Of a DNA stretch of 64,000 nt, positions 716 through 52,464 are shown piece by piece. The DNA comes from Amoebophrya sp. A120 (taxonomy: Eukaryota; Protista; Dinoflagellata): positions 15,190,142 to 15,254,141 of the forward strand of contig CAJINV010000001.1 in the NCBI GenBank assembly GCA_905178155.1, in the 5' to 3' direction. The notes under the pieces were generated by a model that worked only from the letters and a program-made list of their open reading frames with translations, was not told where the DNA came from and searched no databases. Position 1 is the first letter of the stretch. Every line of letters starts with the position of its first letter. The translations under genes were made by a program, and so were the position numbers.

Positions 716-3195
716 ATGAAGCGGTCGCGGGAGCGAACGCGGCGACGGGCGCCCGACGGCAGCCTTTTTCGCTTCGACAGTCCACCCCGGGATGCGCAAG
801 GAAATCTGATAAGCAGCACGAGCGGCGGCAAACAGCCGTTCCCCTTCAATATCTGGCAAGTCCGTCCAGAGCCGATCGTGACAAACTTCTCGAAACTGAA
901 GAACGTGATTGCCGCGGACAGTTCGCTTTCTCTCGCGGTGGATTATCCTGATTAAAAGCGTCCCCACACCAGAGTCAAGATGGGGATTTTGCAACACAAA
1001 CCTAGGAGTTTTGGGAGTCACGCATGACAAGTTTCAGTCCGTAAGGTAGTGCAAGTTAGCAAGGAAAGCCGCATCACAAATCGACCTGCTAATCCTGTTT
1101 ACAGCATTACAAGTTCCCAAACAGGATTGAAAATGCCTGTCATGGGGTTGCGCATCACAAATGTTCCTGTCATGGCAAATCTGCATGACAACTCTGGGGT
1201 GGGGACGTTTTTACACAGGATATGGATTGCCAGATGGCGATGTCGGAGCTGTACGTCGGAAATCTGCCGCCCGGAATAACCCCCGATATCAAATGTAAAA
1301 ATGTCTGGGTCTGGAAGAATGCAACTTGTGATGCTAGTTTCGATGTCTAAAAAATTTGTGTTGCATGAGCAGGAAAAGGAGTCTAATTTTTGCTACGCGG
1401 AGAGGGCATTTGTCATACGGAATGGGCATCAAGAATCCCCCAAAAAACCTGTGATGCTAGGGCATGCATTACAGGCATCATGGGTCATGAGATGACAAAT
1501 TTTGCATTCTTCCAGACCCAGACATTTTTGCATTTGATACCCGAGCAGTTAAAGCAATTCATAAACCGCTGCGCGGCGGTGCTCGGGATTGGACCGCAAG
1601 CGGGACTAGTGACCGCTAGCAACTACGAAGACACGTCAGACGAGAGCGGGGAGAGCGAAGGGGAAGATGGGCAACCGGCGAAACAATTTGCATTCGGGTT
1701 CTCCTCCTCCAATGGGCGCAGCAGCAAGCAGACGAAGACGCCGACGGGCGTCGTCGCATCCGTGGCGATGGCGTCGAAGGACCGAAATTTTGCGTGGGTG
1801 ACCTTCAGGAAGGACAGGTACGCACTTTTGTCTCTGCAAATGAGCGGCATTTATTTGTGCGGTAAGAAGCTAAGGTTCGGTCGGACCTACGCACAAATTC
1901 GTTTACGTGAAACAAAAAACTCCCTGCCCCACGACCATGCTGCACTTTGCGGACACTTTGCTTCGCATCTTTTGCAAAATACTGAAATCAAATGGGACAA
2001 AATTTGTACTTAACCTGCTTGGGGCAACCACATTTTGCCACGCTTGCATGCAACATTGGATCACCAAGCACGAGCAGGAATAAAGCACTGGCTGTACTAG
2101 CACTATTATCCGCAAAAGAGTTGTGCAAGTGAAGGGAAAACAAAGTGCCGATTTTTCGTATCTACATCCCAATGAGGCGGAAGACCGCGGTCTGCTGGTC
2201 GAGGAACTGAAGGCTATTCAGGTGGACCAGGCAAACGTTACCGTGGGCGCCATGCAGCAGCAGAACGCGCAGCAGGCGGCCCTGGCGCAACAGCAGTTGC
2301 AACAGCAACCCTACAACGCGGCGGCGATGCTGCCGAGTGGTTCGACGCAGATGAACTTGGGGATTCTGCAGGATCAGAAGTACTGCCTGCACAACATCCC
2401 GTCCAGCGTGGAGGAGGAAAAGATCTCGCAGCTGCTCCGTACCTTTGGCCCGCTGAAGTATTTCCAGGTGGTCAAGCTGGACGGACAAAGCATCAAAGCG
2501 GCGTTTTTCGAATTTTCCGACTACTTCACGCAGAAGAACGCGCCCGTGACGCTGCAAGGGCTCACGATGGCGGGGAATAAGCTGCAAATTATCACCCCGG
2601 AGGAGGCGTTTCAGGTCGGGTTCGGCCGCGGGAAAGTGTCCATCGGGGATAGGGTCATCCCCTCGAAAATCCTCTACATTGGGAGTTTCATTTCGGAGCA
2701 AGAACTCTGCAACGACGAGGAGTACGACGAAATTTGTGCGGATATCAGGGACGAATGTGCCACCTATGGTAACTATTGTTGTTTTTGATCAGAGGATTCT
2801 TGGTTTTTTGTGATTTCATTTCCATTCCCACCACCGCTCCACCAGTATAGTTTATTTCTTACATGCTGCCGAAGAAATCATTTGAAAAAATATTTTGCCT
2901 TTCAGGTAGAGTCATTGACATGGTTGTTCCGCGTCCTCACGACGACACCATCACGGACGCGGACAGGCTCCGCGGTGTGGGGTATGGTTTTATCGAATTT
3001 GCCGACGTGGTGTCGTCCAGTAAGGCAAAACGCGACTTCGACGGGCGAAAATTCGGGGACTTCACGATGGAAGCGAATTTTTTCAACGTGAAATTGTGGC
3101 AAGATCGGGACTTCAAGTCTGTGAAACCCAACACGGAGGCGGAGCCGGTAATACACGCGAATGAGGAGGAAATGGACATTTCTTCAAGTGGGTGA
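716..3195 (+). CDS. U2AF2: U2AF large subunit (U2AF65)-like splicing factor, multi-exon, with two introners
   Basis: Removing elements 944-1222 and 1287-1539 (plus one DR each) gives VDCQMAMSELYVGNLPPGITPEQLKQFIN (RRM1 RNP2), then NFAWVTF. RRM2: YCLHNIP...AFFEF. C-terminal UHM-type RRM: PSKILYI...EYDEICADIRDEC..YGRVIDMVVPRP...GVGYGFIEF...FDGRKFG. The intron at about 1900-2120 is unresolved. Confidence 0.8.
944..1222. mobile_element. Introner family A, copy 1 (279 bp, DR TGGAT)
   Basis: About 32-bp TIR TATCCTGATTAAAAGCGTCCCCACACCAGAGT / ACTCTGGGGTGGGGACGTTTTTACACAGGATA; DR at 939-943 and 1223-1227; close paralogue at 13746-14024; excision restores V-D-C-Q. Confidence 0.93.
1287..1539. mobile_element. 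Introner family B (253 bp, DR CCCGA)
   Basis: 38-bp TIR TATCAAATGTAAAAATGTCTGGGTCTGGAAGAATGCAA with one mismatch; DR 1282-1286 and 1540-1544; excision restores T-P-E-Q-L. Confidence 0.95.
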
Positions 3196-4026
3196 CGACG
3201 AGTCATCATCTACTCTTCATCTATCTTCGGAAGATGAACAGAAGGAACCATGATTTTTCCCAACCCGTATTCAAACATTCTTCCAATTAACAGCGACTGG
3301 CGATACTAGATTGATGACAACACAAACTCTTGCGACCACTTCTTGAGAAATGGCTCCTGGTACTGCTCGCGCAAGTGCGAAGTGAAGTATCAGCGTGATC
3401 CGACTCCAAGCCGCACTGGTGCGCCTGCCTGCCTTTTCACATTGCGTGTTCCTGTTTTCATCTATGAATGTCACAACTGGCCAGCACAAGAAGGACCTAC
3501 TCTTGTGGATGTTCCAAAACTCCGCTTCTTTCTGGTCTTGGCGCTATTACTGCAACAGCAGAAGAACGATCACATCAATAGACACCTAAAACGAATTTGA
3601 AGAAAACGCTACGAACGGAACAAGATCATATCATAGATAGAAGGGGCAGCTCGAAAAAGTACAACAAGGAGCGCCCATTACTCCTACCTCCTACTGTATC
3701 TTCTTTTCTACTAAGTAACAACGAACTCTTTAATATGTTGCTTTGCTTTTTTTCGCAGCAGGGCCGGCTACACCAGAAAGACACTTTACAACAGTTTCCT
3801 ATGTATAGAAAATAACCAAAGTCATCTCCTTTTCCTGTTTTACCTAAGTGAAGAAGGCGTTTGCTCTTTCTCTATTCCACAAAGATGGGCGGCACGACCA
3901 GACGACCACAGCTCTGAAAAATAACAGCACAATAACGCGAAGAAGTACCACGACGACGTTTTCTACTTCACACCTCGATTGCAGGTGGTACCACCTCCCC
4001 CCCACCCCAAACTCCGACGACCCACT

Positions 4027-7000
4027 ATGTCGAACGACAGCAAGAAGCCGGGGCCCACCAGCGGCACTAGCGGTGCGGCATCTTCTACCGCCGGAGCGAC
4101 GAGAAAGGAGGACCCCAGTAACAAGAGCAAGAAGGATTTGAAAAAGGAAGCGCTGAATGAGGAGGATCAGAAGCTCAAGGACGAGCTGGAGCTCCTCGTC
4201 CAGCGAGCGACAGAGAAGCACGACGTGAAGATCATAAAGGCCAGTTTGGACAATGTCAGCGAGAAGCTCAAAACCGCGTCGTCAACAATGACCAGCGTGC
4301 CCAAGCCGCTCAAGTTTCTGCGACCACACTACGAAACGCTGCAGAAATTCTACGAAGCGGAGAAAACAAAGTTCCTCGCCAAGGACGACGTAACCTGCAG
4401 GCTGTACGCAGACGTGTTAAGCGTCCTAGCCGCGGTGAAGTCCCCACCAAAAAGAAAAGCGGACGTGAAGAAACAAGAGGAAGAGGCCGCAAAGAAGGCT
4501 GCGGAGGAGGAAGGTACGATTGTCGCGATTACATTGCAGTGAATTATTTGTTTCAATTTTTCTTGCTAGCGTTTATATCGCTGTGGACGTGATGAAAGCG
4601 GATGTTACTGTTAGTAAGTACCTGTATCAAGGAGGATCGCAAGAAATCCAAACCACTTACAAATTTCAGCTAAGAAGCAAGCAGAGGCATCGGGCGAGAA
4701 AAAGAAGGACGAAGAAAAAAAGGAGGAGGAGCAGCCTACAGAAAAGAAAGAAGAGGTCTTCGTTGAAGAACTGGATCCCTACAAGGCGAACCGGTCAAGG
4801 GAGTGCCTCAGGTGCGGAGCAAAAACTTTTTGTTTTGCTAGCTTGACAGGCCGATGATCTCGATGTGGAACGATGAGACTCAGTTTTGCTAGGGTGCCGA
4901 TTTCATCTTTGCTTGGCTCGTAAACAAAGGTGCTGTTTTTAGTTAGTAGCGAGTGTGTAAGAGGTCTTATCAAAACAGGTATCGGCTAGAAGGTACTAAG
5001 GGCGACACATTCGTAACCTGGGGCCACGAGTACGTCCGACACTTGGCGGGTGAAGTCATTTACTGCTACCACGCCATTAACGAAGGCGACGACGATGCAA
5101 TGGAAATCGAGGGTGAAGGTACTTGTTTCTCATGTCTACCAATGCAAAAACAAACCTCGAGGGCGTCGATTTTGAAATATGCCTGTTTCCATCGAATCCA
5201 CCGCTTTATCGTATGCGAACGAACTAAACAGACACGCCCGAGCCTTCCTACAAGCCGGACGTGAAAGAGCTGCTGAACCTTGTGAGCGTGATCGTGCCCT
5301 TCCAAATCAAGCACAACGAGGAGACCACGGCCATAGACATGCTGTTGGAGGTTGAGCAGATAAAAATGCTCCCGGACTTGTTGGATGCGTCCACCGTGAA
5401 TCGTGTTTGCCTGTACCTGATGCAGACCGCGGTGTACGCCGGTCAGGCGGAAGAGACGCTGGCTTTGCAGAAGCTCGTGTACGACATCAACCTGAAATTC
5501 AAGCGGTACACCGAGGCGCAGCGGGTGGCGTTGAAGATGAAAGACCACGAGCTACTGGTGAAAGTGTTCGCCGACTGCGAATCCCTCACCACGAAGATTC
5601 AGATGGGATACGTGCTGCGACAACACCGATACCACTACGTAGAGGAGGACTGGGACGAGAAAATTATCGAAGCCGCAACGGGCGAGAACTGGATGAAAAA
5701 ATACTACAAGCACATCGGGAAAGAGCTGGATGTAATTTTACATTGTTGTATGTGCACACCTTACTCTGTTGTGACTAGGTTCTTTTTCTTAATCTCGAAT
5801 CAAAGGGAGTAAAAGTCATCGAAAAAGAACACAAAAACAGGTGCTGGAACCCAAGCTTCCGGAGGATATCTACAAGAGCCATTTGGAAGAAAAAAAGCAG
5901 CAAGTAGTGCTGGACAGCGCAAAGCAGAACCTCGCTTCAACCTACGTGAATGCGTTTGTCAACGCTGGGTTCGGCAAAGATAAGCTTATGACCGTGGGGG
6001 AAGTCTGGCTGTATAAAAACAAGGTACAGGAGATGTCCTCTAATCCGAAAAATGCAGTGCCAACTAGCTACATTTTCTGCGGCGTGAGTACTCATCTGTC
6101 GTCCATATGGTATTTCTCAAATGCCACGCTATCGCAAAGAAACTGAAATAAACAGGAACACGGTATGATGGCCGCCGCCGCTTCGAGATGTCTGATTTCG
6201 CTCTGGGACACCGAAGTCTTGGATGAGGTCGACAAGTACCAGTACGCGTCCGAAGAATACATCAAAGCGGGTTACTGCCTTTCCCTGGGGATCGCGATGT
6301 CCAATGTCAAGAGTGAGACGGATCCCGTCTGGGCTCTGCTCCAGGACACTGTCGAATCGTATTTCATTTCTTAGTACACTTCATAGATAGATGTAGAAGA
6401 CGAGAGACCCGCCGACGCACTTGTATAAATGTTCATGGGATTTTGCTTTTGCCTCGCATGTGGTCAGCATGGATGAAAGGTGCAAATTTCCGTACACGAC
6501 AAACCCAAATTCTCAGGGGCGGGCAGAAGGAGAAGATAGCAGCCATTATGAGTTTGGGTTTCGCTTACGCATCAACAAAGCACGAGGAGATAGTGGAAAA
6601 CCTCACGCCGCTTATCGTAGACGTGGACGCATCGATGGAGTATTTTTTTGATCATTTGCGACTTTATTCACTTTGTGTGCTAGTCCGAAGATTTTGGCTG
6701 GTGCAGAATGGGAGTCCGTCATTGGCTCTTAATCGTCAAGGATGAATAGAATAGAGGTTTATTCCACAATATTCCAGGCTCTCTGCAGTGTGCGCCCTCT
6801 CTGTCGGGATGGTCATGATGGGCAGCGGCGACGCTGACATTTGCGGCGCCATCGTTGCAGCGCTTGAGGAGCGGATGAAGTTGACCGGCGCTTTGGACAG
6901 TTCCGTGGCCACCCTTTTCCCCATGGCCCTGGGCTTGATCATGGTTGGCGTCGGCGAAGGAACAGAAGAGTTCAAGCTCGAGGCGCTGGTATCGGATTTT

Positions 7001-8584
7001 GGAATTTACTTATTTGAAAAGCATGAACAAAAGCAAAACCAGGTAGAGGTACCACTTAAGTAGTAAGTACCTACTTACCTGGAAGATTTTTCTTTTTTCG
7101 TCCGTGCGAATGCTCTACCTCTATCCAAAGCATGATTGTTTGTCACCAAAAACAACGACAGATGGAGATGCTGAAGCAGATCAGCCACCCGCTCGGCGCT
7201 TTCGCGGCCAACCTCATCACGGGGTTCGCCTACGCCGGCAGCGGGGACGTGCTGCAGGTGCAAAAGATGATGCAGGTGTGCGGGGACCACAACAAACACA
7301 GCAAGGACGAGAAGGAGGAGGAAAAAAAGGAAGAAGGCGCGGCCGAGGGGGAGAGCGCAAAATCCACCTCCCCCGCCGGCGGCGCCGCACTGCTGTCCAT
7401 TGCGGCGATTGCGTTTTCCGACGACTTAAGCCGGGAGATGTGCATGCGGATGGTCGAGCACATCCTCCAGTACGGAAACTTGCAGCTGCGGCGAACAGTG
7501 CCATTGGCGATCGGCCTGTTGTTCGTGTCCAACGCAAAGCAAGCGGCAATAGACCTGCTCAGTATATTATTTTTGTGTGTCAGTGAAGATGTCCATCAAT
7601 TTATATTCTTGTTGACCCCGGCTCCTCTGGTAGGCAAGTCAGTGGAGTTAGTCCTCAGTTTCTGTACGAAAGTTTTTTGCCGTGCTTTCCAGTGCTGTTC
7701 AGCGTCTCGACCGCCTTCATAGTCAATCTTTTCCCATAACCATATTTCAGGTAAGCTCTCCCACGACGCAGACGTAGAAGTAGCTTCCGCGGCGATTTTC
7801 GGCATGGGTATCATGGGCGCTGGCACGAACCACGCGAAAATTGCCGGTTTGCTCCGACAACTTGCTGCGTACTACGCAAAGGACGCCAACGTGCTCTTTG
7901 TCGTCCGTATCGCACAGGGGTTACTCTACCTCGGCAAGGGGTTGCTCACACTCACTCCTGTGCACAGCGACAGGTTACTCGTGAACAATGTGGGCATGGG
8001 CGCTTTGCTCACCCTGATGACCGTCATGCTCAACTCCAACACACTTCTGTTCACCCACCACATGCACTGGCTCCTGTACAACTTTCTATCGATTTTCAAA
8101 TATCTTACGTCGATGCTTTCACATCGTTTTCATTTATCCTTGCCCAAGACTGAGTTCTCCTTCTCATGTCCTTATTTGTTGTGGTGGTAAGGCCGCTGCG
8201 GCAATGTACTTAGTTTCTCTTTCTCCTGTGGCACAACAAGATTTTTTTCAGCTAAGGACAACTGCATGGCGTAAATCTCACAAAAATGTTCATCACAGCT
8301 ACATGATTGTGCCAAGTTTGGCTACCCGCATGCTGATATGTGTCGACGAAGAGGGGGAGCCGGTCCCCGTCACCGTGCGGGTTGGGCAGGCTGTGGATAC
8401 CGTTGGACAGGTGGGGAATCCGAAGTCCATCACCGGGTTCCAGACGCACACCACTCCGGTCCTTATGGGCGCCGGCGACCGAGCTGAACTCGCAACGGAC
8501 GAGTTTTTGGCGGAAACAAACGTGTTGGATGGTGTCGTAGTGGTCCGGAAGAATCCCGACTACAAAAAGGAGACTGCGGCATAA
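4027..8584 (+). CDS. RPN1: 26S proteasome non-ATPase regulatory subunit RPN1/PSMD2, about 11 exons with GT-AG introns
   Basis: Hallmark motifs EEDQKLKDELELLVQR, SSTMTSVPKPLKFLRPHY, WGHEYVRHLAGE, DSAKQNLASTYVNAFVNAGFGKDKLM, GAGTNHAKIAGLLRQLAAYY, VRVGQAVDTVGQVGNPKSITGFQTHTTPVL. Confidence 0.96.
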
Positions 8585-9296: not shown

Positions 9297-12200
9297 ATGT
9301 CGACAGTCGAAGAGCGCATCAAGGTGTTGCCCCGGGACAAATTGGAGAATTTGTTCCACAAGAGTTTGGAAAAATGCCGGACGGTGGAGGGGCAAGCTCA
9401 AGCGTTACAGCAGGAGCAGGCGGTTGTAAAAAAGGAACAAGAAGTTACACAACCTAGTGAAAAGGAAGACAACACACAGCCGGATGTTCAACAAAAGAAC
9501 GACGTAGATGACGACACAGCAGGGGCGGAAAACAAGGAGGCGCAGGAGCAAGAGAGGATACACGCGGAGCAAGTGGCGGAGTTACAGAAGAAACAAAATT
9601 CCGACTTGGAAGACCAGCGAGCGAACTGCGAACGAGAATGCGCGTCGTTGCAAGCCTATCAAATGTGAAAGTGTCTGGGTCTGGAAGAAAGCAACTTGTC
9701 ATGCTGATTTTGGATTCTAAAAACATTTGTATTGGATGAGCAGCAAAGAGAGTCCAAGTTTTGCTACACGGAAAGAGCGTTTGTCATGCGGTATAGGCAT
9801 CAGGAAGCCCTCACAAAATCTGTGATGCTAGAGCATGCATCACAGACATTAGGAGTCATGCAAAATGTGCATGACAAGCCTGGCAATCTTCCAGACCCAG
9901 ACATTTTTACATTTGATAAAGCCTCTCTGGACGAAGTGCGGGGCCGACTGGTGGCTTCGGAGGAGGATTCAGAAGTTGTAGACGAGGGGGGAAGCAGTGC
10001 AGTTGTACTACCAGTGGACGAGGCGGCGCTCAGCGAGGCTCTTGCGTCGCAGGAACACGAGGACTTGCGAAAACGTCTTGCGACCACGCGAGAAGGAATC
10101 GTCGCAGAGAAACGAAAGGCGCAGGACGAACGCGCACGAAGAAAAGCAAGCGTCGAGGAGCAGCTGCGGGTTCGTGCACAGGAGGCAGAAAGGGAGCGCG
10201 CGCAGAAAAATGCCGTACTACGTGCAGCATCAGACGAGCGAGTACTACGTGAAAGGCAAGATGCGGAGGAGCGCGTCGCATTGGTAGACAAAGAGATACA
10301 GAAACTGAAAACAGCTGTAGAAGACACACAAGAAGATCTCCGCGCTGCAGCAGAAAAGGAAAACCAACTACAGGCTGAAGTTGCAGCAGCCGTGGCGGAA
10401 ACTTCACATCAAGCGAGCGACGAACCTCCTGCGCAGCAGCCAACGCCGCCAGCAGACAGTAACACTGCAGAAGACTGCTCAACCGCATCGAAAAGTGAAG
10501 AGATAGACGCACTGGAAAAACAGCAAGTGGATTTGGAAAACCGAATACAAGCGCTCAAGGCCGACCAGGCACAGAAGGAGGAGGAACTAAACGCGCGGAT
10601 ACGAGATGCGAGGCAAAAAGTGTCGCTCCTGGACGAGCACGCGGCGAAGAGGAAAACACTTGCAGGGGCTGCAAACTTGCGGCGGGAGCTGGAGACGAGA
10701 AGAAACTACTTGACGGAGCTGGAAAAGAATCTTGCGGATTTGTACTCAAACAGCACAAAGTTCGAAGCGGAGCAGACGCAAGTAGTCAAGCAAGAAATAG
10801 CAACGCTAACGAGCGATTGGAAGGGTCTGCTGACAAGTTCAGGTAGTGAGTAAGGTTCAGCCTCGTTTTTGCGTGCCTATCGTGAGGTTGGTTTTTCCTT
10901 CTTTTGAATAAACGTGAAATTGGCATGAAATATTTGAAAATCCAGATTCCTTCTCCGCTGCCACAACCGGGAGACTTACAAACAACGCCGAGTGGATGGG
11001 TGCTTTGTCCTCCGCAGCGAGTAGCGCTTTCCAAAGGATACTGGAAGACAAACGGGAGCGGGTACGCGCGCTCGGGAACACGAACAAAGTCCTGCAGGCG
11101 CAACTGCAGGAGACAAAAGCGGAGGGGAAAGCGGTGGTGAGCGAGTTTTCGGAGAGCCGGAAAGACACGGCGCAGAATGCGCTGGACGAGCTGGAAAAAC
11201 TGCAGAAGGAGGTGGAGGACCTGAAGAGAACCAAAAAGAAAGATGTGGAGTTCACGCAAAAGGAGCAGGAGAAGCTGCAGAAGTACGAAAAAGTGATCCA
11301 GCAAGCGGACGCCAAGCTGAAGGTGAACCAGAAAAAGTGCAGTGCGCTGAAGGAACAACTCCAGAAGCAACAAGAGGAGCACGTGGCGGCGCAAATGGAG
11401 CTCGACCGCGCGAAGCACGCGGGACAGGAGCTGGACTTCGATCACGAGGAAGTGCTGGCCTGCGTCGAAGTGCCTGTGCGGGGGACAGCAGCTAGTGCCT
11501 CATCTACGTCGAGTAGTACTACAAGACCGAAAACGCCGACTGGGTCCGTGGGAGTTCTTACGAAAAACCCGGCGAAAAATTCAACATCGAAAAATCTTCA
11601 GCCAGATTCTGAAATCTGGTGTCTGCTGAAACACCAAAGCAAAAATCTCGACAAGACCAGCACGGCCAAGGACCTCGCCTACAAGCAAAGCAAATGTTGG
11701 TGGCGACTGCAGCAGCTCGAGGAACTGCTCCCGAAAGCCACCAGCACGACGTTCCCCGTGCCCTTGCAAACCCAGTACCGCCAGTTGCTGGAGAAGCAGG
11801 AGCAGCGAGTTTTGCAAGTGACGGAAGTAAGAAAGGAGCGAGAGAAGTGTCTCGAGAATCTCCGTGCGGAGTACCAAAAGTACAAAAAGAAAGCGGACAC
11901 CGTGGCAAAACTGCAACAGCAACAAACGTCCTCGTTCTCTTCATCTTCGGATGGAGCAGGGGGTACATGCACTTCCGAGCAGAGTCTCAAACCCGAGGAG
12001 AGCATGGCCAAGGGGTTGGAGAAGCTACAAAGTGATAACGCGGAACTGCGTTCGCACATCGCCGCGGTGAGCAAGGAAATTCGGGAATTGCAGCAAGGCA
12101 ACACGCTGCACCACCAAACTGTGGGAAAAATCCGCACGGAAATTCTTCGGATTTGTGACTCCCTGGCCCAGAAGTCCACGCAGCAGACCAGCTTCGAGAA

Positions 12201-14607
12201 GAAAAAACAGTCGATCCGGCAGGAAATTCAGAACAAGGAGGAAGAGCGATTTATGCTGGAGAACTACGCGGTCGAGCTATCAAAAGGAAAAATCCCCCCT
12301 CCCCATATCAAAACGGAATTTCTGATGCTGGATTTGTGTACACAAATCAGCTCTGTATTGCAGAGAAGCGCTGCGGCCAGATCCCCAGGCTAGGTAGCAG
12401 GGACGTTTGGGGCTAGTTGTTCAGCATGGCAAACGGCTCCCCTTTAGTCCCAAGAGCATGACAAATCGCTTCCATAATGGCGCGAAAGCTTCTGCCCTTG
12501 TCTTCTTGCAACAGAAATGTGATTTGTGGCCTCAAATCAGCATCGCAAATTTTCGGAAGCATACCTTGTTGATATGGGGAGGGGGGATTTTTCCTCACGA
12601 TACGAGCAGAATAGCACGCGCAAGAAGGCGCTGGACCAGGAAGTGGATATCTTGCGCACGCTGGAGAAAAACCTCCAGGTAGAAAGAAAAACGCTGCAGG
12701 AGAAACTCGCAAGCCTGTTGGAAGAAAGGCGTGAACAGAACGAGAGAACGACGACGGCAAGAAAGGACGAAAAGGATGATGGAAAAGCAGTCGCTGGCGC
12801 CGAAGAAGCGGGGAAAAAAGAGAGTTTGGAAGGTATTAGGTGTTAGAGTGCAAGAGCAGCTCCATCAACTTCGAACCATGCGTAGATTCTAAACTACTGC
12901 ACTTCGTCTTCGCAATGGCATCCATTGGTTTTGGTTTCAGTACAGGTCGTTCGATTATCCATGTTTTGCCTGCGCACGCCGACATGCAAATGCAATTTCA
13001 AAATGTGATGAACGAACCACACTCATAAACAGCTCCGCCGGAGGACGCAGGGAAAAAGCTGCAGCTTCCGCTCGGCGTGAGCACGAACTCCAGTGCAATA
13101 CCGCCGGAACATCAAACAAAGGGCCCTTCCTTTCTCCCGCCCAATCGGATCACCACGACATCCGGCGGCAGTAGCACGACGCAGTCGACGGCACCGGAGC
13201 AAGTATATCAGAACAACAACTTGGAGGAAGTCCTCCGGCAGCCCACCGTCGCTTGGTCAGACCTGATGGAGCTCCGCGCGCTCATCCGCCAATACGAACA
13301 GTGCTTGGAGCATATTGAGGGGAAAAATCCCCCCTCCCCATATTGAAAAGGTATGTTTCCGAAAATTTGCGTTGCTGATTTGTGACCACAAATCAGGTTT
13401 GTCTTGCAAAAAGACAAGTGCAAAGACATCCGCCCAATTGTGAAGCGATTTGGCATGCTGTTGGTTCTAGGGGGTAGCCATTTGCAATGCTGAACAACTA
13501 GACCTGAGCGCTCCCACCTAGGCTGCGGATCTGGCCGGAGTGCCTTACTGCAAGACAAATCGGATTTGTGTACGCAAATCAGCAGCAGAAGTTCCCACTT
13601 TGATACGGGAAGGGGGGATTTTTCCTTTTGATAGAGCAGGAGAAACGGGACGAGGACTTGTTGCGGCAGCAGAACGACCACCTGATTTTCCAGCTGCAGG
13701 AGATCTACTCAACTACGAACTTGCAGCAAAACATGAGCGAGCAGATATCCTGAGTAAAAACGTACCCACACCAGAGTCAGGATGGGGATTTTGCAACACA
13801 AACCTAGGAGTTTTGGGAGTCACGCATGACAAGTTGCACTCCGCAGTGTAGTGCAGGTTAGCATGTGCAACCGCGTCACAGATTCATCTGCTCATCCTGT
13901 TCACAGCATCACAAATCCCAAAACACGATTGGAAATGGCTTTCATGCGGATGCGCATTACAAGTCTTCCTGTCTTGGCAAATCTGCATTACAACCCTGGT
14001 GTGGGTACGTTTTTACTCAGGATAGCAGACGCAGCTGGAGTACATCCGGAACGTGTTTCGGCAGTTTCTGGATTTGGACGAGAACGGCTCCATATGCATT
14101 GCAAATATGTCTGGGTCTGGAAGAATGCAAGTTTGTCATGCTTGCCTGGCATGACTCATAAATCTGTAATGCATCAGCAGGAAAACGAAAAGGGCCTCTT
14201 GCCTGTCATGCAAAAACGCAGTTTGCCATGCGGAAAACGACACACAGTAGCAGTTGAAAAAATTGTCATGCTTCGCTGCCGATTGCAGTCCCCCCACCAG
14301 TCACATTTTAGCATCACAAGTTTCCAGACCCAGACACATTTGCATTTGATACTCCAGTTCGCTGTACCAAAACCTCACGTCTTCCCTCGGCGGGTCGCGG
14401 AGTAGCTCCGCGGGAACCCTGCAGAAGCTCGCGGAAGAACACGAGCAGTGCATCCCGGTTCTGTTGAAGTTCCTGGAGTTTGATCTTGTCGAGCAGGAAC
14501 AAATCCGGCAAAAACGCGCAAAGAAAGCCGAGAGTTCCTACTACCAGAACGCTGCGAACGAGACGGCAAAAATGATTACCAATTTACGCGGATGGCTCAG
14601 GTTTTGA
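9297..14607 (+). CDS. GRIP-domain golgin-like long coiled-coil protein, multi-exon, with five introners
   Basis: Long E/K/Q coiled-coil ORF pieces. After removing the elements at 13313, 13746 and 14093 the C-terminus reads QLEYIRNVFRQFL...EHEQCIPVLLKFLEFDLVEQEQIR...LRGWLRF*, matching the GRIP pattern (EYLKNVLLQFL...LLPVI..LL.F). Confidence 0.8.
9657..9918. mobile_element. Introner family B (262 bp, DR AAGCC)
   Basis: TIR TATCAAATGTGAAAGTGTCTGGGTCTGGAAGA / TCTTCCAGACCCAGACATTTTTACATTTGATA; DR 9652-9656 and 9919-9923; restores L-Q-A-S-L-D-E. Confidence 0.94.
12278..12602. mobile_element. Introner family C (325 bp, DR CGAGC), orientation 1
   Basis: TIR TATCAAAAGGAAAAATCCCCCCTCCCCATATCAA / TTGATATGGGGAGGGGGGATTTTTCCTCACGATA; DR 12273-12277 and 12603-12607; restores A-V-E-Q-N-S-T. 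Confidence 0.94.
13313..13633. mobile_element. Introner family C (321 bp, DR GAGCA), orientation 2
   Basis: Same TIR type; internal sequence is the reverse complement of the 12278 copy; DR 13308-13312 and 13634-13638; restores C-L-E-Q-E-K-R. Confidence 0.93.
13746..14024. mobile_element. Introner family A, copy 2 (279 bp, DR GCAGA)
   Basis: Perfect 29-bp TIR TATCCTGAGTAAAAACGTACCCACACCAG; DR 13741-13745 and 14025-14029; restores M-S-E-Q-T-Q-L-E-Y-I-R. Confidence 0.95.
14093..14351. mobile_element. Introner family B, divergent copy (259 bp, DR CTCCA)
   Basis: TATGCATTGCAAATATGTCTGGGTCTGGAA / TTCCAGACCCAGACACATTTGCATTTGATA; DR 14088-14092 and 14352-14356; restores N-G-S-S-S-L-Y. Confidence 0.9.
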
Positions 14608-26448: not shown

Positions 26449-29400
26449 ATGATGATCACCGGGCCGTCTCGTGCCGAAACCGCGGCAACTTTGCGTCGAC
26501 GGTATGACGCTTTGCGTATTGTTGCTGGAATTTTTCTGCTCTCCGTTGTCGCCGCAGGTGCCTGGATATTGTACGATTGGTTTGAGAACAGGCACTTTCC
26601 ATTTTGGACCGCGATATTTGGTGGCGGGCCGAGCGAAAACACGGAAAAGAAGGAGAGGCTTTCCACATCAACTACGTCGACTTCTAGTTCCTCCAACATG
26701 AACGGTCGTTACACTGTCCAGGAAAAAACACCCATCCACATCCAATTTGTCATGCAAAACATACATAAAATCCTGTGTTTGTCATGCAAAAAATGGATGT
26801 GGATGGGTTTTTTTCTGTGGATATACACGCTGGACGATCCCCGCGCGGCGAAATTTGAAACGGAATTCGCGAAACGCGGAATGCAGTTCTTTGACGTGTA
26901 CAGTGACGTCATTGACTCGCGCTACGCGGAAGTGTATTGGACGGAGCAGGGGAATTTGCCCTTGCCGAGGGTAATCCAGGACAAGTTCGAGAACGGAAAA
27001 ACGATCGCGATCACGGGGTACGAGCATGACCAAGTGTTTGCGAGTGATCTCAGCGTGTCTGTGCCCTTCTCCTGGGTCTACAACCACCATTACGTCGTAT
27101 ATGTGACAACGGGGAAGATGGAGTACAAACTTGCGGCGAGGTCCGATGTGCGAAAGTGGGCTATGAGGAAACACGGGGATGAAAATTCAGGTTCTCGGAG
27201 CAGTACTGCTGCTACCGAGCTTTCGAAAAATCAGCATTTGGACCTGCACCACATGGGTGTGGGCATGCGGGACTGGAACAAAACGCACGTGAGACTTTGG
27301 GTGCCGGTCGATAGCAGTCCCAAGAAGAAAGAACGTGAAAATTTTTATCCAAGCGACGACTCGACGACTATTCCGCGCTCGCAGTTTATTTCCGAGGCAA
27401 ATGGCGGGGAGAGCCGCAAGAGCCTGCACAGCTATCCAAAGGGCTTAGCGCAACTAGTGTACTCACCGAAGTTCTGGCACGTGACGCCGATGCAGGTCGA
27501 CAGCCGGAACCGGAAGTGCGGGTTGGATCCGAGCACGGTCGGAAAGCCCTGTGCGACACTCGGTCCGGAGCCAAGGCAAGCGAGGTACGGAAGAGAGATG
27601 AAAAACGCCAATGTGTCTGCACTGGTGGAGTGCCCGTGCACCGACCGGTTCGGCGGCGACCCGCTGATTTACGGGGAGGCAGTGAAGACGAAGTCCTTCC
27701 GCAAGCAGTTTGTGGTGGAGAACTGTGGAGCCGCAAGTACAACAGCTACGACCGCGAAAGCTGCGCAATGCTTCGAAGCGGCGGCAAACTTGGTTCACCT
27801 GGATTCGTCGCGAAAACCTGTGATCGTAAGAAATACGACCGTGCCAGCGGACAGTGCGGAACGCGCACCAGCCGGATGCTCTGTTCGATTTGTCGACACT
27901 CCTGCAAGAAAGCAGGAGCGGCCAGCAGCTGGCGCCACACGATCGCGGCGTGCAGAAGAGGACACGTCGTCGGTAGAGATCCTCTTTCGCGAAGCAGCAG
28001 CTGACTCACTCCAAACATCGAAAGATATCAAAAACTCTGTTGCAAAAAAGTGTACCACGGCCGCCAAGAAGCTAGGGAGTGTGTCTTTTGACGGCATTGG
28101 TGTGTCTACCGAGATATCTGTCAACGAAACGCACGTGGAAATGAGGCTGCAAGGACCCGCGACTGTTTGGTTCGGCGTGGCATTTGACGCGGTGCTGATG
28201 GCTGACCAGCCTTACACCATCCTCGTTTTGCCGAGGGGCTCGACGTCACCAACCGGGGCCAGCTCCTCACAAATGGTTCCACCAACAGAAGCGGACGTTG
28301 TTGAACAGCAGATTGGCACGTGCGGCGAAGAGGCGCAACATTGTCCCGGGGACAGGCTGAAGATACAGTCTTTGACGAAACTAGAGGACCGAGTTGTCGA
28401 AATTAACCCAGATGATTTTTACGTAAGTGAAAATACAGGACCGAGTGCACGAACTTCTTCTGGTGCCGCACCGCAGTTCATGCGCATAGTGCGCGTGGTG
28501 CGGAAGCTGATCGGCGCTAGTCCGAAACACTACACCTTCAATGCCGGCACCATCAATCTGATGGCGGCGATCGGCCGGTCGCCGAAATTCGCCCATCACA
28601 AGGGCCACCGACGAAAGCAGGTCGCACTGTTTGACAGGAGCGCTGACGCGTTCAACTGCGTCTGCGTTGATTTGAAAACGCCAGGCCTTCTGTGCGATTC
28701 CAACGGCCTGAATTGCGAGTCCTTCGTGAAAAACTGTGCGCCGGATTGTGCAAAGACGGACATTTTCCACACAAAGGAGCACCACTGCGGCGACCTGGTT
28801 TGGCAAGAGAACCCGACCTATCAAATGGAAAAATGTCTGGGTCTGGAAACTTGTGATGCTGTGCGGCGTATCATGAGGAGGCCACAATTGCTGGCTCAGC
28901 ATGACAAGTTTCTGAGCTGCTAGGTGTTGCCTATTCTGCATGAGAAACTACCTTTCTGCATGACAGAAAAGTGGGGCTCTTTGGTAATGTGCATGACAGA
29001 TTTAAGAGTCATGCCAGACAAGCATGACAAACTTGCATTCTTCCAGACCCAGACATTTTTACATTTGATACGACCTGCGCCAGTCTGAGTTATGTGGGGG
29101 GTCTTCAGTGTTGCCGACACGGATCGACGTTGCTGGACCAGGGGCAGAAGATGGACCCGCCAGACGTGCTGCAGTATCGGGTCAAGTTCCGGTTCTGGTA
29201 CGAGGAATACAACGAAGGTGGGCGTACTGTCAACACGCAAGACAGAAAGAACGCAGCTCAAAGCCCGACGAAGGTCCGCCCTCCATCGCACCTGAATCTC
29301 GATCGACTGTACTACCAGACCGAGGGTTTCGCTGGTGAGTACGATGTGCCGCCGGCGTTCCGGCTCCCGACCGAAACTCAGCCTCTGGTTGGATTTCCCG

Positions 29401-45500: not shown

Positions 45501-46695
45501 ACGGCGAGCAAACTCGGGGGAAAGAAACCCCAGCTGGACAACGAGGCGGAGTTCCCTTCCTTCCCGATCGGTCTGCAGCCGCTCGGCGGGGGTGGGCCGC
45601 CGCCCGTGAAGAAGCCGGTCACCAAAAGTTCGGTGTTCGGTGCCGCGAGTCTGTCCGCGGGCGGCGCGTCTTCGTCCGCGGCGTCGTCCTCGTCCACGCC
45701 CAACAACGCGGTCGCCGCGAAGAAGAAAGCGAAGGTCGGACAGCCGAGCGCGGCAAAGGACATCACGTTGAATTCGAATCCGAACGCGCCCGCGCCACCC
45801 CCGATCGGACAACAGCAGCAATCTTCCAGTTCCTCCAGCTCGTCCCGGCCGCGCGACGCAAGCACGGGGTCGAGCTCGCTGTTGAAGGGAATCCAAGAAA
45901 AGCAGGAACTACTAAAAACCGCCTACGGCCCCACCAAGATAAAAGACGAGGCCGCGGAGCGCGGTCAGGTGGCGAAGAAGCTGGGGAATGCGGAAAATTT
46001 TCCCGCGCTTCCCAGCAGCAGCGTGCACCAGCCGGCCGGAAAAAGTCGGGATACCGGGGGCCTCTTGAAGGGGGCAAACATCATCTCGAAAAAGACCGGA
46101 ACCGTGGTGCCGGTGCAGCAGGGTTCAAAGACGGCGCAGCTGCAGAAAAAGAAGGACCTGTTCGATGACGACGACGACTTCGCAGACGTGAGCTTTGCAC
46201 AGGTATAGAGGGTTTTTGATATGGTCTGAAGTAAATTTGTGTAGTTTGTTCGAAAGTAAGGAATTCAGTTAAGTACTGTGTTCGTCCTTTTTTCCACCGA
46301 ACAAGTACTGGTTGTTTATCGCAGCGCATCATATAATCCAACAGGCTTTGGTGACTCAGTCTGGTTCTGCGGACGCCGAACCCGGGTCGCCTAGCTGGAA
46401 TAGCAAGAGGCCTGTAACTACAGCAAGCAAAGTTCCTGACGCGTGGGACGACGACGAGTTGTTTCCCACACTAAACGAGAAACAAGCCCCGCCCCCCGCG
46501 GGGGACGTTTCCCCATCGAAGCCCCTAGTCGGAAAAGCGAAGCAACTCGAGGAACAGCGACTGCGGCAGGAGGCGCGCGACGCCAGGCTCGCTAAGCAAC
46601 TGCAAGATGCCGAGAACAATTCGGCGGGAAAAACGGAGCAAGCACCGCCGAAGGCACGAGGGAGACAGAAAAAAACGCTGATCGCGTGGGGATAA
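42507..46695 (+). CDS. ZNF598: ZNF598/Hel2-like RING and C2H2 E3 ligase (ribosome quality control); one introner
   Basis: RING CPVC...CGHWACFKC.LRIR...CPMCK, then the C2H2 array (HSRYFCRTC, PHADCQFCKKSFF, HITCFLC, HFLAEHHVC) and repeated DFPAL/EFPS/NFPAL motifs. Confidence 0.88.
44650..44973. mobile_element. Introner family C (324 bp, DR GGCCA), orientation 1
   Basis: TIR TATCAAAAGGAAAAATCCCCCC / GGGGGGATTTTTCCTTACGATA; DR 44645-44649 and 44974-44978; restores L-R-A-N-E-R-E-L. Confidence 0.93.
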
Positions 46696-47627: not shown

Positions 47628-50606
47628 ATGAAGAAGTTTGTGGAGAGACGGCTTGCGCGCGAGCGCGTGCTCGAGAAGGAGCAAATTGCACTGCGGAAAC
47701 AGGTGAAGGACATCGAACTTATGAAGTGCCACGGGGAGGCCGATTTCCGGGTCGAGGTCGCAAGAAGAGCACGAGAAACAAATGAACAGAAGGCCGAGGT
47801 ACAGGAATAGAGCCTGCTTTTGAAGATCGTGTTTTTATTGACTATGCGCGGTCGGAAAAGACTTCTCCTGACGCATGGAAGTAAAACTAAAGAACAACGA
47901 TAAATAATTCACTGTACAACTATAAAAAATCCAGGTTTCCACCGAGTATGCCCACGTGCAGGCACAGCAGGTTGCAACGCGAAAAGCCATCGTTAGCAAA
48001 ATGGAAACTGATCTCGCGATCGAGCTGGAGCGGAGGAAAGCACAAGCAGTTATTGAAAGGAAAAACTCCCCCTCCCCATATCGAAAAGGAATGTTTCCGA
48101 AAATTTGTGTTGCTGATTTGAGGCCACAAATCACATTTGTCTTGCAAGGAGACAAGGGCAAAAGCTTCGCCCCCATTATGGAAGCGATTTGTCATGCTGT
48201 TGTGCCTAAAGGGCAGCCGTTTCCCATGCTGAGCAACTAGATTGATACGCCCCTACATAGCCTGAAGATCTGGCCGCAGTGCCTTCCTGCAATACAGAGC
48301 TGATTTGTGTACACAAGTCCAGCATCAGAAATTTCGTTTTGATATGGGGAGGGGGGATTTTTCCTTTCGATAGCTGTTCGCGAGGAACAGGATCGCATCA
48401 GGATGTACGACGGTACACGACGATTGCTTCGGCTTTTTTTGTGTTAGGTTTCTGGTGGAAGCACGTTATCGAGCATGCAGCAGGCTGTATGTCGGTCATG
48501 ATTTGCACATCATTTTGGAAAAAATAGAAATGTCGTGTTTAGTTGTGTCGGGCTCAGAATTTTCTAAACCCGGCCAATCTATCAATCAATGCAGGTAGTG
48601 AGGAACTGCGACAAATCAAGACGAAGTTGCACCAAGCGCAAGTGAACAAGGAAAGGCATCAACAGCTCGTGGAGCAGCTCCTCAGAAAAGAGCAAGAGAA
48701 GCAAGAGGTACGCTTGCGTTTGTTGCGTCACACGGTACAGCCTTTGGTTTTCGGCCGACACTGAGCAGTAAAGCCAAGAGAAATATTCATGGATAATCAA
48801 CGAAAAATGAAACTAAAACAGGAAGAAGAAATTTCGCAGCGGATGGAGTATGATCGAAGGGAAGCAATCGAGAAGAAGATCGCGGACGAAATACACAAGT
48901 CTCAGCAAAGAGGTAAGGCTTTGTAGGCACGGTGGTTTTATTTTCTTGCGCCCATGTGCTGTGGTTTTACGCTCAAAGAAATGATCCGCTCCTCCTGCCC
49001 TTGCGTTGCTTTCTGGGGGGCACTGGGGCAGTGGAGGTATCACACACGACTGACGCTGCTTTTTTCAAGCGCATCTACCACCCACAACTCCAGGTAAAGT
49101 GACCGCAATAAATCAGCAGCAGATCATATTGCGAGAAGAGGCAAAGGGCTTGTCAAAAATCCAAGCCGAGAAGGAGAGACAACAGGTAGACATAACGCGT
49201 TTTCGCGTATACTAAGTTAATTCGAACGCACATCGTAAGAAAGTACCGAACAGATGAAGCAGTGAAGGTGCATAATCTGAATAAAAATCAGCTTGAAAAG
49301 TAATCTCCGAATCAATACTGCTGTTGTAGGTTGAAGCAATAGTGGAGCAGATCGCAAAAGAAGACGCTTTGGAAGCCGCCACAAGAAAGAGGAAACAGGA
49401 GGAAACCCAAGTCATGCTGCGGGCCTTCATGATTGAGCAGCAAGAGCGCCAACGAAAAATGGAGCAGGTATAATCACTCAATTGCTGCTGTTGAATGTGC
49501 ACGAGCAAACTGCTGCAAGGTATTCCAAGAAAAGATAGATTGCTTACTAAGTGCAACTTGTTCATGTTCCACCTGGACCTGTGTTGTTTCTCTGGAGAAC
49601 GGTCCGACTGGAACACAAAAAACAGGACGAGCTCGACGAGATGGCCGCTATCGAAGCGTTCGCGAAAAAGAAGCGTGCTTTGGAGGAGGCCCAAGAGGAG
49701 GAGAAGCGCAAGGCAGAGGAGGCGAAAAAAGCCGCTTACGAGCTCATCGTCGCGACCGCCGAAGCAAGAAACAAGGAGGCGGAAGAATTCGAATTCCTCA
49801 AGAACGAGCTGTAAGCTGCTTTTACTTCTTGTTGGAACGTTCCAGGTTCGTTGGTTGTCGTGAGGCCTGGTTCGAATTTCCTTTGGAGAATTAGATCTTT
49901 TCTTGAGAACAAATTTGCGCGTTGATGTTCACAAAACCGCAGGTACGCAGAGGAGCTCGAGGCCCAACAGCGACGGAAGGAGGAACTGGGTATGCGCAAA
50001 AAGCTCGAGGACCGCGCGGAAATGTTGAAGGCATACGAGGATCAGCTGCGTTTGAAGGAGGAGCGCCGGGTCCGCGAGGAGCGCGAGGAGGCGGTGTTCC
50101 GGGAGAAGCTGCTGCACAAATTCGCGGAGGACGACAGAATAGAACAGTTGAACGCACAGAAAAAGCGCATGAAGGTCCAGGAGCACAAGCGGGAAGTCGA
50201 GAGGCTACTGCAGGTAAGTATGTTGAGGGGTGCTGGCTTAGTACAACCTACAACTTCGCATGGCGATACGTGTACTTCAGTTGCTGCAGCATCTTGTTTT
50301 GCTTCGCCTTTTTGTGCTGAGCACGTGGACGTGGTAGCACGAGTCCCCTGCCATGTCATGCGCTACGTTTTATTTCTTCGTGAAAAACAGGAACGGCGCG
50401 CTCAGTACCAGGCGGAGCGGGATGCCGAGCTGCTGGAGCTGGAGGAGCAGCGCCGGGTGCAGAAGGAGCGCTACGTGGAGATCGAGGAGGAGAAGAAGCG
50501 GCTGCTCCGCGAGCATTGCGTCCAGTTTCGCGACTACCTGCCGAAGGGCATGTTCCAAAACCGCGAAGACTACGACTACGTCATGGCCCAGCCCGAGCCC
50601 AACTAA
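47628..50606 (+). CDS. MNS1: MNS1 (TPH-domain ciliary microtubule inner protein), multi-exon; one introner
   Basis: EELRQIKTKLHQAQVNKER, FREKLLHKFAEDDRIEQLNAQKKRMKVQEHKREVERL and EEEKKRLLREH...YLPKG match MNS1 signature blocks; the start is uncertain. Confidence 0.88.
48051..48372. mobile_element. Introner family C (322 bp, imperfect DR GCAGT/GCTGT), orientation 2
   Basis: TIR TATTGAAAGGAAAAACTCCCCCTCCCCATATC / GATATGGGGAGGGGGGATTTTTCCTTTCGATA; restores K-A-Q-A-V-R-E-E. Confidence 0.92.
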
Positions 50607-51452
50607 AAAGAAGTCCTGTGCGGTGTTCGCGGAAAAATTAAGCGAAATAATTCCTAAACTTTTATCAGACATCCAAAGCATCAAAAGTTTTAATTCTATC
50701 ATCAGACAAATCAGACAAAAAGTTGCAGTTGTCGGCAGAACAACTGCACGAAATAAAGGGAGGGGAAACAGCAGCACGACCTCCCACGGTTTCAATTTTC
50801 TTTACCTTTCTTTACACATCAGACTAAACGCAGACAAACTTGTTACGATTTGAAACTACAAACAGACCAAACAGATTATCATTTGAACTCGTGTTGAAGT
50901 AAAGCAGATATAGATTTAGCAGACCAGAAATTGTTCCTGCTGCTCGTTGGGTTCAGTTCTTGCTTCTTTCTTCTGCCAGAGTTGGCTGGCAGTTCGCCTG
51001 TACTCGCTACAAGCAGCAGTATGGAAAAAGCTGAAGAGACGTTTTGAATGTTTGCACTAGCGCCGGACTCATTCTTGCGCGAAATGGACGGAACAAAATG
51101 AACAGAACAACAGTAGATGCGGACACAAAACAACAAGTGCAGAACTTGTTCAGCTTTTGCGCGGTGTTTCATTATCTTGAATTTGGTGAAGCGCTAACAA
51201 AGTATGAAAAAAAGACGAAGCGCACTCCACCCGGTTTCTGGGTCAGAGGTGTCCCACCTCTGACAGGTACAACAGGAAAATCCTTTGCTTTCTTTGTGTT
51301 CCCCCACCTCGCTGCGCGTGGGACCATAAGCGCGCTTTAAGTACACTATGCATGGCTCAATGCTTTTTCACCGTCGCGTGAAGAAGGTCGCGCGGCCAGA
51401 TCTGAGGACAGCACTCAAGTCATGAACTAGGAGTCGAACATCAGTGTGCAAG

Positions 51453-52464
51453 ATGGCGTCTGAGGAGGCTGCGGAGGAAATTGCAGAAGAGGCCAGCGAA
51501 GAGTCCTCAGCAAACGTCCCGGAGCTGGATCTTTCACATTGTGGCGTCAAGCAAAGGGTCCGCGACATCCAAGCCGACATTAACGCCGAAGTGCTATCAG
51601 CTCGACAGGAGATAATTGTATTTGATGCTTTGATGAAGATGAAGTAAGTAGGTGTCGGCTCGAACGAAAACGATTATTCGCTCATATCTATCAAGCCAAA
51701 AGCTGACTTCTCTGTAAGTAAATGATTTTCGAATGCCAAAACCACTTCAACAGCGCCTCGAGCTGAAAAAGGGGACGCGAGTGAACGAGGAAGTTGCCAA
51801 GGAGGAGAAGCTATCAAATGTAAAAATGTCTGGGTATGGAAGAATGCAAGTTTGTCATGCTTGTCTGGCATGACTCTTCTATCTGTCATGCACCTTATCA
51901 AAGAGCCCCGCTTTTCTGTCATGCAGACACGTAGTTTGTCATGCAGAATAGGCAACACCTAGAAGCTCAGAAACTTGTCATGCTGAGCCAGCAATTGTCG
52001 CCTCCTCATGATACGCCACACAGCATCACAAGTTTCCAGACCCAGACATTTTTACATTTGATAGAAGCAATTCAAAGAGGGCGTGACAGCAGCCGTGAAG
52101 GGGACGCAGCGTGTTATCCTCAAAGACCTGCGCCGATTCGAGGATTCGATACAACCGGTGAAGCGGCTGCAACATGCGGAGAACGTATGACGGCAGAAGT
52201 TGCGAATTTCGTTGAATCATGCTCGCACCAGTTGTGCGTACTAACTCGCAGCAGCGATACATAGATGAATCACCGAAACAAGATCTGCAAGAGCCACTTA
52301 GCCTCAGAAAGGCAAATGCTTTCTGTAGTGACAAAAAAAACTAAAATCAGATGCGGATATTGAAGCAGACCACCCAGATCCGGCAAGACACGAAGGCGCT
52401 GCGGAAGATGCTTCGCAATTTGGACAAGCGGCTGCAGAAAATGGAAAACGAATTGGAGTTCTAA
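51453..52464 (+). CDS. Small coiled-coil hypothetical protein, multi-exon; one introner
   Basis: MASEEAAEEI... exon; EEKQFKEGV after introner removal; last exon ...LDKRLQKMENELEF*. Confidence 0.6.
51812..52063. mobile_element. Introner family B (252 bp, DR GAAGC), opposite orientation to the 28819 copy
   Basis: 30-bp TIR with one mismatch; DR 51807-51811 and 52064-52068; restores E-E-K-Q-F-K. Confidence 0.95.

What the first reader, a model, noticed from the sequence alone, without database searches (positions are those of the whole stretch)
944..52063. Twelve TIR/5-bp-DR elements in four families act as precisely removable non-canonical introns
Seen: 12 elements (A x2, B x5, C x4, D x1), all inside coding exons of 6 genes, none seen in intergenic DNA or ordinary introns, inserted in all three codon phases. 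Deleting element plus one DR (114-330 nt) restores the ORF each time, including conserved RRM, GRIP and MNS1-region peptides. Host genes include normally essential ones and are otherwise intact, so removal must be exact. Known: IR/DR introner elements are described in Amoebophrya (Farhat et al. 2021), so the class is not new. To my knowledge the removal mechanism and the mobilising enzyme remain unresolved. Inference: a transposon-intron system with its own excision rule.
Basis: partly seen in the sequence, partly recalled or inferred. Interest (0 to 1): 0.9.

Follow-up and report, generated by a model that had tools for sequence, protein, structure and literature searches.

The report
Amoebophrya transposon introns without GT-AG
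These are the already published transposon-derived introns of the plankton parasite Amoebophrya A120: short inverted-repeat elements that sit in coding exons in either orientation and are missing exactly, with one 5-base repeat, from the messenger RNA seen for one of them and from most public gene models, likely because the splicing machinery reads the element's TAT end as a donor site at a fixed offset.

Summary
Observation confirmed: 12 TIR elements with 5-nt repeats (11 perfect), all in coding exons of six genes; 0 in 20 shuffles. The window is Amoebophrya sp. A120, the genome in which Farhat 2021 described this class, with the same TAT-N7-AAA ends. One cDNA-type contig skips one element plus exactly 5 nt; public A120 proteins do so for 8 of 9 checked; orthologues have empty sites. 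Corrections: element D (left end TGT) is in frame, stop-free and kept as coding in the public model; the families share termini and a subterminal motif, so they look like one system; a candidate mobiliser (integrase-like, 5-bp TSD, TA termini) is in print. Added here: orientation is random (102 vs 93 pairs, second assembly); no sign of selection for RNA pairing; and a candidate fixed cut, 1 nt before the left TIR and 4 nt after the right, which puts TAT at +2..+4 of the host's GTAY donor. It rests on one decayed intron with unambiguous borders and a weak end asymmetry; a repeat-mismatch test was inconclusive. The scan noted similar introns in other genomes. Known class; the register is a testable lead.

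The parts
944..1222 (.). A1 element, DR TGGAT, in U2AF65-like RRM gene (CDS 716-3195, +)
   Evidence: removed as 284 nt in A120 protein P0121; empty site in AT5.2 orthologue P0122
1287..1539 (.). B1 element, DR CCCGA, same gene, inside RRM1
   Evidence: removed as 258 nt in P0121; orthologue continuous
1903..2170 (+). 13th, decayed non-canonical intron (TT..CC), no intact DR, no hairpin; TAY-N7-AAA-like ends 1 nt inside the 5' border and 4 nt inside the 3' border
   Evidence: 268 nt removed in P0121; X3 contig piece begins at 2171; pattern test; fold z -0.32
9657..9918 (.). B2 element, DR AAGCC, in golgin-like coiled-coil gene (CDS 9297-14607, +)
   Evidence: X3 contig joins 9651 to 9919 = 267 nt; same in P0123
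12278..12602 (.). C1 element, DR CGAGC, golgin-like gene
   Evidence: 330 nt removed in P0123, empty site in P0124; X3 piece ends at 12272
13313..13633 (.). C2 element, DR GAGCA, opposite orientation to C1
   Evidence: 326 nt removed in P0123, empty site in P0124; orientation
13746..14024 (.). A2 element, DR GCAGA
   Evidence: 284 nt removed in P0123, empty site in P0124
14093..14351 (.). B3 element, DR CTCCA
   Evidence: 264 nt removed in P0123; site falls in a gap of the orthologue
26715..26823 (.). D1 element, DR TACAC, left end TGT; 114 nt, in frame, no stop; host CDS 26449-30167 (+)
   Evidence: kept as 38 coding residues in P0001; empty site in Ameob2 orthologue P0002
28819..29070 (.). 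B4 element, DR CGACC, 95% identical to B5 but inverted
   Evidence: 257 nt removed in P0001; empty site in P0002
44650..44973 (.). C3 element, DR GGCCA, in ZNF598-like RING gene (CDS 42507-46695, +); one register reads GC..AG
   Evidence: removal inferred from frame only
48051..48372 (.). C4 element, imperfect DR GCAGT/GCTGT (synonymous), in MNS1/TPH gene (starts 47628, +)
   Evidence: homologues align without indel across the junction
51812..52063 (.). B5 element, DR GAAGC, in a short unannotated gene (51453-52464, +)
   Evidence: removal inferred from frame only

Best explanation
These are non-coding TIR elements with 5-nt flanking repeats, inserted in exons in either orientation and absent as element plus 5 nt from the cDNA-type contig seen for one and the public protein models of eight; they were likely inserted by an integrase-like DDE transposase acting in trans, and are likely cut from pre-mRNA by the host's altered U2-type spliceosome at a fixed register, 1 nt before the left TIR and 4 nt after the right. 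Shown: anatomy, exon location, exact removed length, random orientation, empty sites in relatives. Inferred: that the TIR's terminal TAT serves as +2..+4 of the host donor consensus GTAY with +1 G not required; that the acceptor is set by distance from the right-hand TIR motif without needing AG; that the symmetric ends are why both orientations work; that the RNA hairpin is not the signal; the identity of the transposase.
For: RNA-level removal: X3 contig 11 joins 9651 to 9919 (267 nt) and also skips GT-AG introns, so it is cDNA-type; DNA-type X1 contigs run from the flanks into the elements at single-copy depth 40-55. 8 of 9 elements checked are removed exactly in A120 protein models, which were transcriptome-guided (PMC7789003 passage). 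In a second assembly, removing a 972-nt B-type element + 5 nt rebuilds the RPB1 stretch [28 protein letters not shown]. 155 of 156 oriented elements there would break the frame if kept. Orientation: B4/B5, C1/C2 inverted in + strand genes; 102 same vs 93 opposite pairs. Register: 35 of 36 canonical donors are GTA, 27 of 36 GTAY; only register k=4 gives nTAY (11 of 12). Intron 1903-2170 has unambiguous borders, starts TTAC and fits the terminal pattern at both ends only at k=4; 0 of 36 canonical introns fit in any register. In the second assembly the first TIR base is T at 156 of 156 5' ends but varies at 5 of 156 3' ends, and TAC occurs 5 times at 5' vs once at 3'. Hairpin not selected: G-U vs A-C arm mismatches 141 vs 124, p 0.33. 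Near-complete spliceosome with U1 undetected (PMC7789003 section 10). Mobiliser: A120 family 38, Ginger-like, '5-bp TSD, TA/TA termini' (PMC12130899 section 6 and Dataset file 8); TA..TA termini mark IS3EU/GingerRoot (PMC10045372 passages).
Against: Direct RNA evidence covers 1 of 12 elements (plus one contig end); X3's RNA status is my inference. The register rests on one intron whose TIR origin was read after the fact and which has no hairpin. The end asymmetry is not significant (p 0.06 and 0.22). The mirror register k=1 gives TA+N acceptors, TAG in 5 of 12, close to the host's CAG. In 23 imperfect-DR elements the A/T-bias test was mixed and at DR position 3 ran against k=4 (5 left vs 1 right). 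No element has G at +1 in k=4 (0 of 12), and G is not enriched there in 133 perfect DRs (34 vs 40.7 expected). All 12 fold into strong hairpins that could hide the donor (z -3.6 to -13.6), though arm positions 4, 5, 7 pair in only 47-59%. Canonical donors were picked near positions I chose by eye; 3 of 39 doubtful picks were dropped and 2 of 41 gave no pick. No transposase was found.
Confidence: 0.5

Rival explanations
1. Same RNA-level removal, but by a non-spliceosomal, stem- or motif-guided endonuclease plus ligase, as proposed for euglenid nonconventional introns; the TAT match to GTAY is coincidence with the transposase end.
For: Strong terminal hairpins in both orientations; no GT-AG in any register for 12 of 12; U1 undetected; euglenid introns leave as circles by unknown machinery (PMC11282704 section 6).
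Against: No G-U excess in the sense strand; intron 1903-2170 is removed without a hairpin; Euglena's CDG/CHG signature (PMC12501133 abstract) is not the TAT/ATA end seen here.
Confidence: 0.25
2. Spliceosomal removal in the mirror register (k=1) or in variable registers: the right TIR's TA supplies -3,-2 of the acceptor and the donor is free.
For: TAG in 5 of 12 and GC..AG for C3 at k=1; DR base 1 is G in 55 of 133 vs 43 expected; position-3 mismatches favour a left intronic copy 5 to 1; Farhat calls the sites variable relative to the hairpin.
Against: The base that would be acceptor -2 is the one that varies (5 of 156) while the 5' T never does; intron 1903-2170 fits only k=4.
Confidence: 0.18
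3. Elements are excised from DNA (IES-like) in the expressing stage rather than spliced from RNA.
For: Element + one TSD is also the footprint of precise transposon excision; life stage of runs X1 and X3 unknown.
Against: X1 contigs break inside the elements, not at the repeats, at full depth; Farhat reports tens of thousands of RNA-supported NCIs against one assembly. Contigs drop rare variants, so absence is not shown.
Confidence: 0.05

Closest known systems
Introner elements (IEs) of Amoebophrya sp. A120 (Farhat et al. 2021, PMC7789003; abstract, sections 10, 11, 12, 16, passages and supplement passages read; figures not seen)
   Same: Same strain (100% protein identity); IR starting TAT + 7 nt + >=3 A; DR of 3-5 nt, 5 bp in their example; no transposase inside; non-GT-AG ends; 29,850 copies reported.
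   Different: Nothing in kind. The text I read leaves the splice position relative to the hairpin variable or unknown and does not state orientation independence, a fixed register or the shared subterminal motif.
A120 introner family 38 (Gozashti et al. 2025, PMC12130899; section 6, passages, 41 of 58 A120 rows of Dataset file 8 read)
   Same: TIR element, 5-bp TSD, TA/TA termini, intron-generating.
   Different: 808 bp with ORFs like LTR integrases; the 12 here are 109-325 nt and non-coding. I could not compare sequences.
IS3EU/GingerRoot DNA transposons (PMC10045372, passages read)
   Same: TA..TA termini, occasionally TG; integrase-related DDE clan.
   Different: TSD usually 6 bp, here 5; no transposase found here.
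Euglenid nonconventional introns (PMC11282704 section 6; PMC12501133 abstract)
   Same: Non-GT-AG, paired ends, repeats at junctions, probable MITE origin, cut at a set spacing from an end motif.
   Different: Signature N3CDG..CHG N5-6|R, not TAT..ATA; circles shown there, untested here.
Fritillaria borealis non-canonical introns (PMC13326754, passages; PMC11282704 section 6)
   Same: TIR/TSD introns handled by an adapted spliceosome.
   Different: Preferred ends AG-AC/AG-AT there; duplicated U2AF shown there, not examined here.

Membership tests
Amoebophrya A120 introner elements | Inverted repeats at both ends | tested here: met
   20-25 of 25 complementary in 12 of 12
Amoebophrya A120 introner elements | 3-5 nt direct repeat at the borders | tested here: met
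   5 nt, 11 perfect and 1 with one mismatch; 213 perfect 5-nt DRs vs 2 of 4 nt in the second assembly
Amoebophrya A120 introner elements | IR motif TAT-N7-AAA | tested here: met
   23 of 24 ends start TAT, D1 left is TGT; motif from paper section 11
Amoebophrya A120 introner elements | Repeated across the genome | tested here: met
   X1 summed depth 3e4-4e5 in element bins vs 42-61 outside (not a copy number); same families in 132 loci of a second assembly
Amoebophrya A120 introner elements | Removed from RNA with non-GT-AG ends | tested here: met
   B2 in X3 contig; 8 of 9 in public models; no GT-AG register. Not met in the model for D1; C3, C4, B5 not seen in RNA or A120 models
Amoebophrya A120 introner elements | No transposase inside | tested here: met
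   109-325 nt, stops in most frames
IS3EU/GingerRoot transposons | TA..TA termini | tested here: met
   definition
IS3EU/GingerRoot transposons | 6-bp TSD | tested here: not met
   5 bp throughout
IS3EU/GingerRoot transposons | Cognate DDE transposase | tested here: inconclusive
   no Pfam hit in 11 ORFs of two about 1-kb elements; no whole genome was available to search
Canonical-site introners (Aureococcus/Micromonas type) | GT/GC-AG ends made from TIR and TSD | tested here: not met
   0 of 12 GT-AG, 1 of 12 GC-AG (C3) in any of six registers
Euglenid nonconventional introns | N3CDG..CHG N5-6|R signature | tested here: not met
   ends are TAT..ATA, compared by eye with the abstract's signature
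Euglenid nonconventional introns | Excised as full-length circles | not testable with these tools
   needs RNase R / branch-point sequencing

The most novel reading that the evidence does not exclude
The seemingly random splice sites of A120's tens of thousands of non-canonical introns obey one rule: N|TAY at the donor, with the transposon's own terminal TAT as +2..+4, and an acceptor measured 4 nt beyond the mirror end, with neither +1 G nor AG needed. A U1-less spliceosome reading the transposase end as its signal would make any insertion, in either orientation and any phase, a perfect scarless intron, and D1 (TGT end) would be a natural loss-of-splicing mutant tolerated because it is in frame.
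Probability: 0.35. Interest if true: 0.75.

Novelty: already known. Interest (0 to 1): 0.4.

Why it matters
The class is published, so the finding itself adds no new system. What remains open is how a eukaryote removes introns with no fixed end dinucleotides, scarlessly, from essential genes (U2AF65-like here, RPB1 in the second assembly). A fixed register would turn this into a simple code that existing RNA-seq can test, say whether the spliceosome or another enzyme does it, and correct gene models (D1 adds 38 residues to a public protein that its orthologue lacks).

Tried and rejected
No whole genome was held for this window, so no genome-wide count or transposase search was possible. No holder of the stretch was on record as RNA. 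Raw RNA runs X9 and X10 carried only a B-type TIR from another locus (126 and 3 reads laid, no flanks) and say nothing here. RNA across D1, C4 and the other nine elements was not seen, so D1's retention and the C4 cut position stay open. Viral contigs: 0 matches to the B TIR. Three about 1-kb TIR pairs in the second assembly: one is a run of three short elements, two are single long elements without transposase hits. DR-mismatch test of the register: inconclusive; the 12 cases with register-dependent residues had no host conserved enough to separate k=1 from k=4 by eye. Canonical introns show no hairpin in the k=4 register, so no sign that they are converted elements. Farhat Table S4's nine top A120 site types all begin NT, but aligner tie-breaking inside DRs could cause this, so I do not count it. 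The first codon model had one gene out of frame and was redone. My MNS1 model had 3 stops from a mis-set downstream exon; only the part round C4 was used. Rejected: pseudogenes (intact orthologous frames, cDNA-type contigs); distant GT-AG use (exact lengths). Roy et al. 2023 (Curr Biol) is not held and may bear on the register; figures of all papers were not seen.
Full report
Observation. A scan with no motif assumption finds 12 distinct elements with inverted ends and a 5-nt flanking repeat, against 0 in 20 shuffles; coordinates are in 'parts'. Eleven repeats are perfect, C4's has one synonymous mismatch. All sit in coding exons of six + strand genes: a three-RRM U2AF65-like gene (RRM by Pfam; the U2AF65 name is recalled), a golgin-like coiled-coil gene, a gene whose homologues carry PF07712, a ZNF598-like RING gene, an MNS1/TPH gene and a short unannotated gene. 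Phases are 3/5/4 and 11 of 12 would introduce a stop if kept; D1 would not.

Source. Three exon queries each hit an Amoebophrya sp. A120 protein at 100% (accessions). Farhat et al. 2021 described introner elements in this strain, with IRs starting TAT, seven free bases and at least three A (section 11), which is what 23 of 24 ends here show. The class is therefore already known from this genome.

Removal. In run X3 a contig joins 9651 to 9919, that is B2 plus 5 nt, and also skips GT-AG introns (10839 to 10943; 2767 to 2905), so I read it as cDNA; its next piece stops at 12272, at C1's repeat. Public A120 proteins lack exactly element + 5 nt at 8 of the 9 sites checked (A1, B1, B2, C1, C2, A2, B3, B4) and keep D1 as 38 residues. 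These models come from the same kind of RNA data and are not independent of X3. Orthologues from strains AT5.2 and Ameob2 are continuous at A1, B1, C1, C2, A2, D1 and B4; B2 lies in a poorly conserved stretch and B3 in a gap. The 25 of 36 MNS1 homologues printed align without an indel across C4. C3 and B5 rest on frame alone.

A second assembly. An exact 25-nt B-type end matched 132 loci, all from one assembly, holding all four families. Of 224 elements found, 156 could be oriented by a codon model; 68 were dropped. Lengths + 5 are 62/41/53 modulo 3 and only 1 of 156 is open if retained; related pairs are 102 in the same and 93 in opposite orientation. A 972-nt element interrupts RPB1 and its removal with 5 nt rebuilds a highly conserved stretch (conservation recalled). 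So removal is exact, orientation-blind and independent of size from about 110 to 970 nt (inferred from frames there, no RNA).

One system. All families share TAY-N7-AAA ends and a subterminal CAT(G/C/T)ACA motif: 39 hits of the 8-nt form in 3,237 element bases vs 4 in 60,763 outside; 3.4 per element vs 3 in 18,720 flank bases in the second assembly. It points inward-symmetrically, as transposase binding sites do (inference). TA termini and a 5-bp TSD point to the IS3/integrase-like clan, and Gozashti et al. list an A120 family with integrase-like ORFs, '5-bp TSD, TA/TA termini'. I found no transposase myself.

Where is the cut? A perfect repeat hides it among six registers. Host canonical donors are GTA in 35 of 36 and GTAY in 27. 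Only the register starting 1 nt before the TIR and ending 4 nt after it (k=4) reads nTAY (11 of 12; D1 reads CTGT). It begins TTAC, ends CC, and shows the TAY-N7-AAA pattern at both ends only at k=4; none of 36 canonical introns does in any register (joint chance about 4e-5, but the pattern was chosen after seeing it). It has no hairpin. In the second assembly the 5' T is invariant (156 of 156) while the 3' mirror base varies 5 times (p 0.06), and G-U does not exceed A-C among arm mismatches (141 vs 124). Together these favour sequence motifs read by the spliceosome over a hairpin-guided enzyme. Against: the mirror register gives TAG acceptors in 5 of 12; DR position-3 mismatches favour it 5 to 1 while other positions are mixed; +1 G is not enriched. 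I put the full model at 0.5, RNA-level removal alone above 0.9.

Print. Searches for Amoebophrya with introner, splicing, U1 and TIR terms returned no paper stating a fixed register or orientation independence. Farhat's legend calls the sites variable or unknown. I saw no figures, 41 of 58 A120 dataset rows, and not Roy et al. 2023, so it may be in print. PMC12005148 (passages) says these elements are confined to part of the genus. Earlier scan notes report similar introns in other genomes, unchecked.

Verdict. The value lies in a concrete, cheap-to-test splicing rule and two diagnostic sites (C4, D1). Interest 0.4.

Noticed in passing
window 1903-2170: Non-canonical TT..CC intron without hairpin or intact repeat; probably a decayed element; fixes a register.
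   Followed up: yes
window 716-3195: The U2AF65-like splicing factor gene itself carries three non-canonical introns; the protein is about 49% identical to the AT5.2 orthologue and has a 60-residue insertion in RRM1.
   Followed up: partly
window, 36 canonical introns: Unusually tight donors (GTA 35 of 36, no +5 G preference) and A-rich acceptors ending CAG without a pyrimidine tract, in line with reported loss of U1.
   Followed up: partly
window 17023-17334: 39-nt tandem array, flanked by an inverted repeat (about 16930-16965 / 17515-17560) inside a 913-nt GT-AG intron; seen by eye and.
   Followed up: no
window 944-968 vs 13746-13770: A1 and A2 differ at TIR position 19 on both arms at once (C/C vs A/A), suggesting arm homogenisation.
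   Followed up: no
window 19503-25733: Single-exon ORF of about 2,000 codons with no element, as also the RPN1-like gene (4027-8584) with ten canonical introns; elements cluster instead in two genes (7 of 12).
   Followed up: no
L030 4001-4972: 972-nt B-type element with perfect 30-nt TIRs inside RPB1; no coding domain.
   Followed up: partly
L068 2180-3224: 1,045-nt element with proper ends and 5-nt repeat, GC-rich repetitive interior, no Pfam hit.
   Followed up: partly
window 716-14607: Gene order appears shared with AT5.2 (orthologues g4377 and g4380).
   Followed up: no
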